From positions 30,014,104 to 30,078,103 of the forward strand of contig NC_092671.1 in the NCBI RefSeq assembly GCF_964355755.1: a stretch of DNA of 64,000 nucleotides. Reading direction: 5' to 3'. Position 1 is the first letter of the stretch. Every line of letters starts with the position of its first letter. Source of the DNA: Antedon mediterranea (Eukaryota; Animalia; Echinodermata). The notes beneath the pieces are model-generated. The model saw nothing but the letters and a program-made list of their open reading frames with translations, was not told where the DNA came from and searched no databases. Below are positions 6,888 to 6,929 of this stretch, in pieces. Made by a program: the position numbers and the translations under genes.

Positions 6888-6929
<42 letters not shown>
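6888..6929 (+). repeat. 42-bp exact duplicate of 28S 5481-5522 (H69/R2 target region) in IGS1
   Basis: AGCGCGGGTAAACGGCGGGAGTAACTATGACTCTCTTAAGGT is identical to 5481-5522. Confidence 0.98.

What the first reader, a model, noticed from the sequence alone, without database searches (positions are those of the whole stretch)
6888..6929. Every complete IGS carries an exact 42-bp copy of the 28S helix-69 / R2 / I-PpoI target site that stops at the R2 cut site
Seen: AGCGCGGGTAAACGGCGGGAGTAACTATGACTCTCTTAAGGT at 6888-6929 equals 28S 5481-5522 and recurs unchanged in all six IGSs (16380, 26932, 36387, 46636, 56099), ~250 bp after the 28S end. Identity ends one base past TTAAGG^TAGC; the copy reads AAGGTTAGA instead of AAGGTAGCC. 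Established: this segment contains LSU helix 69 (GGGAGTAACTATGACTCTC) and is the main insertion hotspot for rDNA parasites. R2 non-LTR retrotransposons insert at AAGG^TAGC and recognise mainly the upstream sequence, I-PpoI recognises CTCTCTTAAGGTAGC, and Pokey elements use a TTAA in this region. Inference: the copy keeps the upstream recognition half but loses the downstream half. It could be (a) a per-unit decoy that diverts site-specific endonucleases or retroelements to a harmless spacer position, (b) a fixed scar of an R2 5' junction, or (c) an H69 hairpin co-opted for 3'-end formation or termination. I recall short 28S-like blocks being noted in some invertebrate IGSs, so novelty needs a literature check.
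Basis: partly seen in the sequence, partly recalled or inferred. Interest (0 to 1): 0.85.

Follow-up and report, generated by a model that had tools for sequence, protein, structure and literature searches.

The report
Retrotransposon target copied into rDNA spacer
Every complete ribosomal DNA repeat here carries, in its spacer, an exact 42-base copy of the spot in the 28S gene where R2 jumping genes insert; it is predicted to be a complete R2 landing site, was likely captured by accident from this break-prone spot and spread by repeat homogenisation, and pieces of the same spot turn up in the spacers of several unrelated rDNA lineages.

Summary
An exact 42-bp copy of 28S 5481-5522 sits 250-259 bp past the 28S end in all six complete spacers; the next-longest spacer/gene match is 12 bp. 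One correction: this is not a half-site. It spans -41 to +1 around the R2 nick. It therefore holds both motifs that silkmoth R2 needs (RUM -34..-22, RASIN -6..+1) at native spacing and ends on the last required base. It is longer than published R2 leaders (-9 to -36), and no ribozyme or ORF follows it. No insertion is seen at any of the 12 sites. Identity between units shows no selection, because the flanks are equally invariant. The four nearest relatives found lack the copy in the spacer held. Yet 3 of 47 other spacer lineages carry independent, partly decayed copies of the same zone (P 3e-4 to 0.012). Best reading: recurrent capture from a nick hot spot, fixed by concerted evolution and probably passive (0.5). 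A selected decoy or harmless landing pad in the 3' spacer remains open (0.25). The scan noted related spacer or satellite copies of retrotransposon targets in other genomes (e1-9964016, e1-9526670).

The parts
6888..6929 (+). 42-bp spacer copy of the 28S H69/R2 target, positions -41..+1 relative to the R2 bottom-strand nick (unit 1)
5481..5522 (+). donor segment in 28S (LSU positions 2527-2568); R2 nick between 5521 and 5522; intact in all six units
   Evidence: nick numbering from PMC10499050
6895..6907 (+). RUM (-34..-22) within the copy
6923..6929 (+). RASIN (-6..+1) within the copy; all four critical bases present; predicted nick between 6928 and 6929
6904..6922 (+). helix-69 hairpin in the copy, -4.8 kcal/mol as RNA
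6930..6944 (+). 15-bp linker; the 7-mer spanning the copy's 3' junction (6924-6930) recurs at 6936-6942, a possible microhomology or short duplication
6945..6972 (+). T28 tract, putative Pol I termination signal (inferred by analogy with other marine invertebrate spacers)
   Evidence: PMC8765248 and PMC6730533 passages
6756..6836 (+). 9 x 9-bp tandem array upstream of the copy (10 copies in unit 6)
6837..6887 (+). unique 51-bp upstream flank, no significant similarity to 28S
16380..16421 (+). copy in spacer 2
26932..26973 (+). copy in spacer 3
36387..36428 (+). copy in spacer 4
46636..46677 (+). copy in spacer 5
56099..56140 (+). copy in spacer 6

Best explanation
All six spacers hold an exact copy of the 28S R2 target (-41..+1) that is predicted to be cleavable by an R2-type protein; it was likely captured once into one spacer when a nick or break at this 28S hot spot was repaired with a short templated insertion, was likely spread to all units by concerted evolution, and is likely a passive, lineage-specific passenger. 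Shown: the copy, its sharp edges, its content of both R2Bm motifs, its absence from the spacer held for four relatives, and independent copies of the same zone in other lineages. Inferred: the nick-driven capture (the 3' edge lies at the nick, +1 base), fixation by homogenisation, and neutrality.
For: The 3' edge lies at -1/+1 of the R2 nick, and a 7-mer at the junction recurs 12 bp downstream, which gives a possible microhomology. Flanking spacer segments (117, 51 and 71 bp) are as invariant across the six units as the copy, and the six LSU genes differ by 0-5 of 3684 bases, so homogenisation alone explains the identity. PMC3036644 reports that the first ~350 nt after 28S in Daphnia co-homogenises with 28S (passage). 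The four nearest relatives found (L049, L075, L025, L024; 81-90 of the last 100 LSU bases identical) show no copy in 0.9-1.5 kb of spacer. Among 63 external spacers in 47 lineages (73.8 kb), 9 independent internal rRNA fragments were found and none in 3 shuffles. Three of the 9 overlap the window's segment (L007 -38..-3, twice, antisense; L023 -11..+31; L109 -15..+33), P = 3e-4, 2e-3 or 0.012 for 5489, 2700 or 1500 bp of detectable rRNA. The four carriers are scattered on an LSU-end tree (4 changes, 500 of 500 shuffles as low), each beside non-carriers. Their boundaries and orientation differ and their identities run from 78% to 100%, as expected of repeated capture and decay.
Against: The window's copy has 0 mismatches and matches the minimal R2Bm target almost exactly, which neutrality does not predict and selection or ongoing gene conversion with 28S would. 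The terminal T(+1) could be chance, since the spacer is T-rich. No R2 element was seen in this 64 kb and no whole genome is held, so the proposed nicking agent is not shown to exist in this organism. Two of the three external copies lack the RUM, so R2 itself need not be their cause. Most external spacers are only partly held (33 of 47 lineages hold 600 bp or more), they were selected by one LSU-end motif, and their taxa were not determined. The hot-spot P value rests on 9 fragments and on my choice of which to count.
Confidence: 0.5

Rival explanations
1. The copy is a selected decoy or harmless landing pad. It doubles the number of R2-cleavable sites per unit. An element inserted there would still be co-transcribed by Pol I, since the site lies upstream of the T28 tract, and would have the -28 leader that most R2 ribozymes use, while leaving 28S intact.
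For: It contains RUM and RASIN at native spacing and ends on the last required base. A relaxed RUM+RASIN pattern occurs only at these 12 sites in 64 kb. Clade-A R2 is reported to target only the upstream region (PMC12203849 passage). The most frequent ribozyme cut is at -28, inside the copy. R2 is reported in crinoids and sea urchins, and the window's 18S looks echinoderm-like (recalled signature, not tested). In run X8 (guessed RNA, second study) contig depth drops from about 170,000 in 28S to about 760 at 6660-6743 and 784 at 6844-6887. That is a weak hint that the precursor reaches the copy; contigs cannot show levels and DNA may contribute.
Against: No insertion in any of 6 spacer copies or 6 28S sites. 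No excess conservation over the flanks. Absent from four relatives. All four external copies have a change at a RASIN-critical base (L109 at -5, its only mismatch in 48 bp; L023 at -3; both L007 copies at +1), so they are predicted not to be R2Bm substrates.
Confidence: 0.25
2. The copy is the 28S leader of an R2 transcript that inserted in the spacer, after which the element was almost wholly deleted (a 5'-junction scar).
For: It ends at the insertion site. R2 junctions with duplicated upstream 28S sequence are known (13-28 nt; PMC3774820). Earlier scan notes describe off-target R2 copies that carry a 28S leader (e1-9956509, not checked).
Against: 41 nt upstream exceeds the reported leader range of 9-36 nt. 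No HDV-like ribozyme or R2 RNA family is found downstream and there is no ORF of 100 aa or more in the spacer. External copies extend to +31/+33, which a 5' leader cannot give.
Confidence: 0.12
3. The H69 hairpin was co-opted as an RNA signal for Pol I termination or 3'-ETS processing ahead of the T28 tract.
For: It lies 15 bp upstream of a T28 tract in every unit. The H69 hairpin forms in the centroid fold. The relative L049 has a hairpin directly before a T12 tract in its 3' spacer.
Against: The hairpin is weak (-4.8 kcal/mol; -10 for the 60 nt before the tract, against -34.2 in L049) and lies 22 nt from the tract. The region folds no better than shuffles (z=-0.25). The copy extends 16 bases 5' of the hairpin. 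In L007 the copies are antisense and the stem is broken.
Confidence: 0.1
4. The copy is an assembly artefact.
For: rDNA arrays are often collapsed or misassembled, and the six units are near-identical.
Against: The units differ in spacer length (3226-4323 bp) yet all carry the copy with unique flanks. A separately assembled public-run contig crosses from the flank into the copy.
Confidence: 0.02

Closest known systems
R2 non-LTR retrotransposon target site in 28S (RUM + RASIN; Wilkinson et al. 2023, PMC10499050)
   Same: Identical sequence from -41 to +1, both motifs at native spacing.
   Different: It lies in the spacer, outside the gene; +2 onward differs (single changes at +2..+5 tolerated and +6..+37 dispensable in vitro for R2Bm); no element is inserted.
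28S duplications at R2 5' junctions and 28S-derived stretches in R2 UTRs (PMC3774820, PMC5035012)
   Same: Short copies of upstream 28S sequence that end at the insertion site.
   Different: Those are 13-28 nt and attached to an R2 element inside 28S; this one is 42 bp, free-standing and fixed in every spacer.
Transposable-element and satellite insertions in the IGS (review PMC10946416; Lepidoptera, PMC10257491)
   Same: Foreign or duplicated sequence fixed in spacers by concerted evolution.
   Different: The passages read describe elements or satellites, not a copy of an element's target site.
Poly(T) putative terminators of marine invertebrate spacers (PMC8765248, PMC6730533)
   Same: A T-tract in the 5' part of the spacer.
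   Different: The passages read mention no 28S-derived block.
I-PpoI homing site
   Same: 12 of 15 bases retained.
   Different: The last 3 bases differ; the enzyme is from a slime-mould intron (recalled) and is not known to act in this host.

Membership tests
R2 target site | RUM at -34..-22 | tested here: met
   copy spans -41..+1 with 0 mismatches
R2 target site | RASIN with T-6, T-5, A-3, T+1 | tested here: met
R2 target site | native RUM-RASIN spacing | tested here: met
   ungapped identity
R2 target site | nicked and primed by an R2 protein | not testable with these tools
   predicted only from R2Bm mutagenesis; four changes together at +2..+5 were not tested there in the passages read
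R2 target site | R2 element present in this genome or inserted at the copy | tested here: inconclusive
   0 of 12 sites interrupted in the window; no whole genome held; reads across the sites were not examined
R2 5'-junction scar | 28S leader of 9-36 nt | tested here: not met
   41 nt upstream
R2 5'-junction scar | HDV-like ribozyme or R2 remnant downstream | tested here: not met
Selected decoy | conserved beyond its flanks within and between species | tested here: inconclusive
   no excess within the array; absent in four distant relatives; a close relative (run X11, about 90% alike over 6600-6788) gave no piece at the copy's flank
I-PpoI homing site | full 15-bp site | tested here: not met
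   12 of 15, site as quoted in the finding
Pol I terminator or 3'-ETS processing hairpin | stable hairpin next to the T-tract; precursor ends there | tested here: inconclusive
   weak hairpin 22 nt from the tract; RNA ends not testable with contigs

The most novel reading that the evidence does not exclude
Animal rDNA spacers repeatedly acquire copies of the sites that rDNA-specific retrotransposons attack, and in this species the host has fixed a complete, cleavable R2 target in the transcribed 3' spacer of every unit. It is a built-in decoy and landing pad where R2 can nick, insert and be expressed (or drive copy-number recovery) without destroying a 28S gene.
Probability: 0.25. Interest if true: 0.88.

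Novelty: new variant of a known kind. Interest (0 to 1): 0.6.

Why it matters
R2 persists by destroying 28S genes, yet may help keep rDNA copy number. An array with one true and one spacer target per unit is a natural two-choice experiment. It lets one ask directly how R2 chooses among identical sites, whether hosts evolve target decoys, and whether an insertion outside the gene spares the unit. The recurrence of captures from the same 28S zone in unrelated spacers also suggests that spacers record endonuclease activity at rRNA hot spots. The finding bears on R2-based gene insertion too, since a non-coding, Pol I-transcribed target would be a natural safe site.

Tried and rejected
Extension of homology beyond the 42 bp, direct or as a fold-back: not significant (p 0.14, 0.78, 0.20, 0.48). 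Unusual RNA structure over 6620-6990: none (z=-0.25). An antisense polyadenylated retrocopy ending at the T28 tract was considered (an AATAAA-like signal lies next to it on the minus strand): no second copy of the adjoining 10-mer was found in the spacer to serve as a target-site duplication. Scans of viral and bacterial collections with the LSU-end motif gave 2 and 35 matches, none a eukaryotic LSU end. Runs X5 and X11 give no cover at 6840-6887, which proves nothing about the copy. The apparent concentration of mismatches between the two motifs in the L007 copies (11 of 13) reduces to about 5 mutation events, 3 in that interval, and was not counted as evidence. The idea that L023 and L109 end at the nematode R4 site, and that other fragments (L037 LSU 2677-2720, L068 LSU 3245-3303, L041/L044/L078 SSU 1096-1142, L007 LSU 1104-1189) match other elements' sites, rests on recall. 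The R4 paper is not held and a search for it found nothing, so this is untested. Literature: ten searches found no description of an H69/R2-target copy in a spacer. I recall, unverified, short 28S-like blocks in crustacean spacers (Tigriopus, Burton et al. 2005; seen only as a reference entry), so prior notice in subscription journals is possible. No supplements were read.

Full report
Observation. The window is a tandem rDNA array with six full LSU genes, six complete spacers of 3226-4323 bp and one deleted unit near 60-62 kb. The 42-mer occurs 12 times without mismatch, once in each 28S and once in each spacer, 250 bp (259 in unit 6) after the Rfam LSU end; 0 of 100 shuffles give a match. 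The next-longest exact match between spacer 1 and the 18S-28S region is 12 bp. Gapped extension beyond either edge is not significant (p=0.14 downstream, p=0.78 upstream), nor is a fold-back. A separately assembled contig of public run X1 crosses from the upstream flank into the copy, with 25 of 29 letters as in the window. X1 may be the source sample. A second study of the same coded organism (X8) holds the flank up to 6887.

Anatomy. After the 28S end come 117 bp of unique sequence, nine 9-bp repeats, a 51-bp unique flank, the copy, a 15-bp linker, a T28 tract and then 5-bp microsatellites with 280-365-bp subrepeats. A 7-mer across the copy's 3' junction recurs 12 bp downstream. The spacer has no ORF of 100 aa or more and no ribozyme or R2 RNA family. 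The 14 matches at E<1 downstream of the copy are all far below gathering score and mostly lie on the microsatellites. The organism was not identified; the 18S looks echinoderm-like from memory.

What the copy contains. Numbered from the R2 bottom-strand nick, it spans -41 to +1. In passages of Wilkinson et al. 2023 (PMC10499050), R2Bm needs a 13-bp upstream motif (RUM, -34..-22) and a 7-bp site (RASIN, -6..+1). Changing T+1 abolishes cleavage, changing T-6, T-5 or A-3 severely reduces it, other single changes in -6..+5 are tolerated, +6..+37 is dispensable, and the spacing matters. A relaxed RUM+RASIN pattern matches only these 12 places in 64 kb; the strict in vitro consensus matches none, not even the 28S sites. 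A review passage adds that clade-A R2 targets only the upstream region (PMC12203849), and R2Tg reads bases -25..-20 (PMC12222951 passages). For I-PpoI, using the site quoted in the finding, 12 of 15 bases are kept. R2 ribozymes cut 9-36 nt upstream, most often at -28 (PMC3774820 passages), so the 41-nt upstream part is longer than any reported leader but includes the -28 stem segment.

Is it selected? Within the array, no evidence. The 117-, 51- and 71-bp neighbouring segments are each identical in all six units, like the copy, and the LSU genes differ by 0-5 bases. None of the 12 sites is interrupted. To look outside, I scanned collections with a motif from the LSU 3' end. Of 146 loci, 67 were eukaryotic LSU ends. 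I dropped 4 (L035, L070, L085, L111: rearranged, or under 200 bp of spacer), which left 63 spacers in 47 lineages and 73.8 kb; 33 lineages hold 600 bp or more. The four loci nearest the window (L049, L075, L025, L024) show no copy in 0.9-1.5 kb, so it is not an ancient shared element at this position.

Recurrence. With 21 reference rRNAs as queries, the external spacers gave 9 independent internal fragments, two of them weak (L046, L015). I left out duplications of the LSU 3' end (L059/L062, L093) and one 18S start, and counted the two L007 copies once. Three locally shuffled sets gave no hits. Three of the 9 overlap the window's segment: L007 (two tandem antisense copies, -38..-3, 6 and 7 mismatches in 36), L023 (-11..+31, 81%) and L109 (-15..+33, 47 of 48). 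The chance of 3 or more is 3e-4, 2e-3 or 0.012, taking 5489, 2700 or 1500 bp as the detectable space. On a tree of 63 LSU ends the four carriers need four changes and are no more clustered than shuffled labels; each has near neighbours without a detected copy, some of them only briefly held. Most external loci are probably nematodes (recalled signature, untested). Every external copy has a change at a base critical for R2Bm, including the single mismatch of L109 at -5, whereas none of 12 full external LSUs varies at -6..+1. This fits decay, or cutting and scarring until immune; the data cannot tell which.

Mechanism. The best-supported reading (0.5) is recurrent capture. [quoted passage not shown] A nicked or broken end there templates a short insertion into a neighbouring spacer, perhaps helped by the junction microhomology. 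Concerted evolution, which is strong just downstream of 28S (PMC3036644 passage), then fixes it. The capture step and the nicking agent are inferred. The decoy or landing-pad reading (0.25) rests on the exact fit to the minimal target and the position upstream of the T28 tract. Depth in the guessed-RNA run X8 falls about 200-fold at the 28S end and is similar at 6660-6743 and 6844-6887, a weak hint of a precursor reaching the copy. An R2 leader scar (0.12) fails on length and on the missing remnant. A terminator hairpin (0.10) is weak and offset, though the relative L049 has a strong hairpin before its T-tract. An artefact is unlikely (0.02).

What is known. Ten searches found no report of a spacer copy of this site. 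I read term-centred passages of 14 papers and part 2 of 5 of PMC5035012, no whole texts and no supplements. Subscription papers on invertebrate spacers are not held, and I recall unverified mention of 28S-like blocks in crustacean spacers. Earlier scan notes describe a spacer repeat copying another 28S retrotransposon target (e1-9964016) and a satellite spanning the R1 site (e1-9526670); both were judged by-products, and I did not check them.

Verdict. Real, a new variant of spacer capture, with a predicted complete R2 target fixed in every unit and evidence that the same zone is captured repeatedly. Function is unproven. Reads across the copy and the 28S site were not examined, so insertion and scar rates, the decisive measure, remain open. 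Interest 0.6.

Noticed in passing
window 60152-62310: A deleted rDNA unit: 18S runs to position 1353 (window 61501), then joins the distal spacer microsatellite (matching 9059) through a 4-bp microhomology. The rest of 18S, 5.8S, 28S and the spacer copy are lost.
   Followed up: partly
window 9456-9468 and subrepeats 7150-9450: A TATA-then-G-run motif like the arthropod Pol I start consensus quoted in PMC2590618 follows the last subrepeat, about 440 bp before 18S; the subrepeats repeat its upstream sequence without this motif.
   Followed up: no
L041/L078 spacer +398..+482; L044 +562..+589: A piece of 18S (about positions 1096-1142) present as an inverted repeat in the spacer, identical in two contigs and more decayed in a related lineage.
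   Followed up: partly
L068 spacer +999..+1057; L037 spacer +412..+455: Spacer copies of other conserved LSU stretches (window-LSU 3245-3303, 93%; 2677-2720, 86%); possibly targets of other rDNA-specific elements (recalled, untested).
   Followed up: partly
L007 spacer +646..+731 and +916..+1010: A mosaic of antisense LSU pieces: positions 1104-1189 with an internal deletion, and two tandem 42-bp-period copies of the H69 zone.
   Followed up: partly
window 6756-6836: The 9-bp tandem array gives nine TTAA words just upstream of the copy; TTAA is the piggyBac/Pokey target word named in the finding. The array is also held by run X11 of another coded organism.
   Followed up: no
window 6945-6989, minus strand: The T28 tract read on the minus strand is an A28 tail preceded by AATAAA-like words, resembling a retroposed 3' end; no target-site duplication was found.
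   Followed up: partly
L049 spacer +72..+117: A strong GC hairpin (-34 kcal/mol over 60 nt) directly before a T12 tract in a relative's 3' spacer.
   Followed up: no
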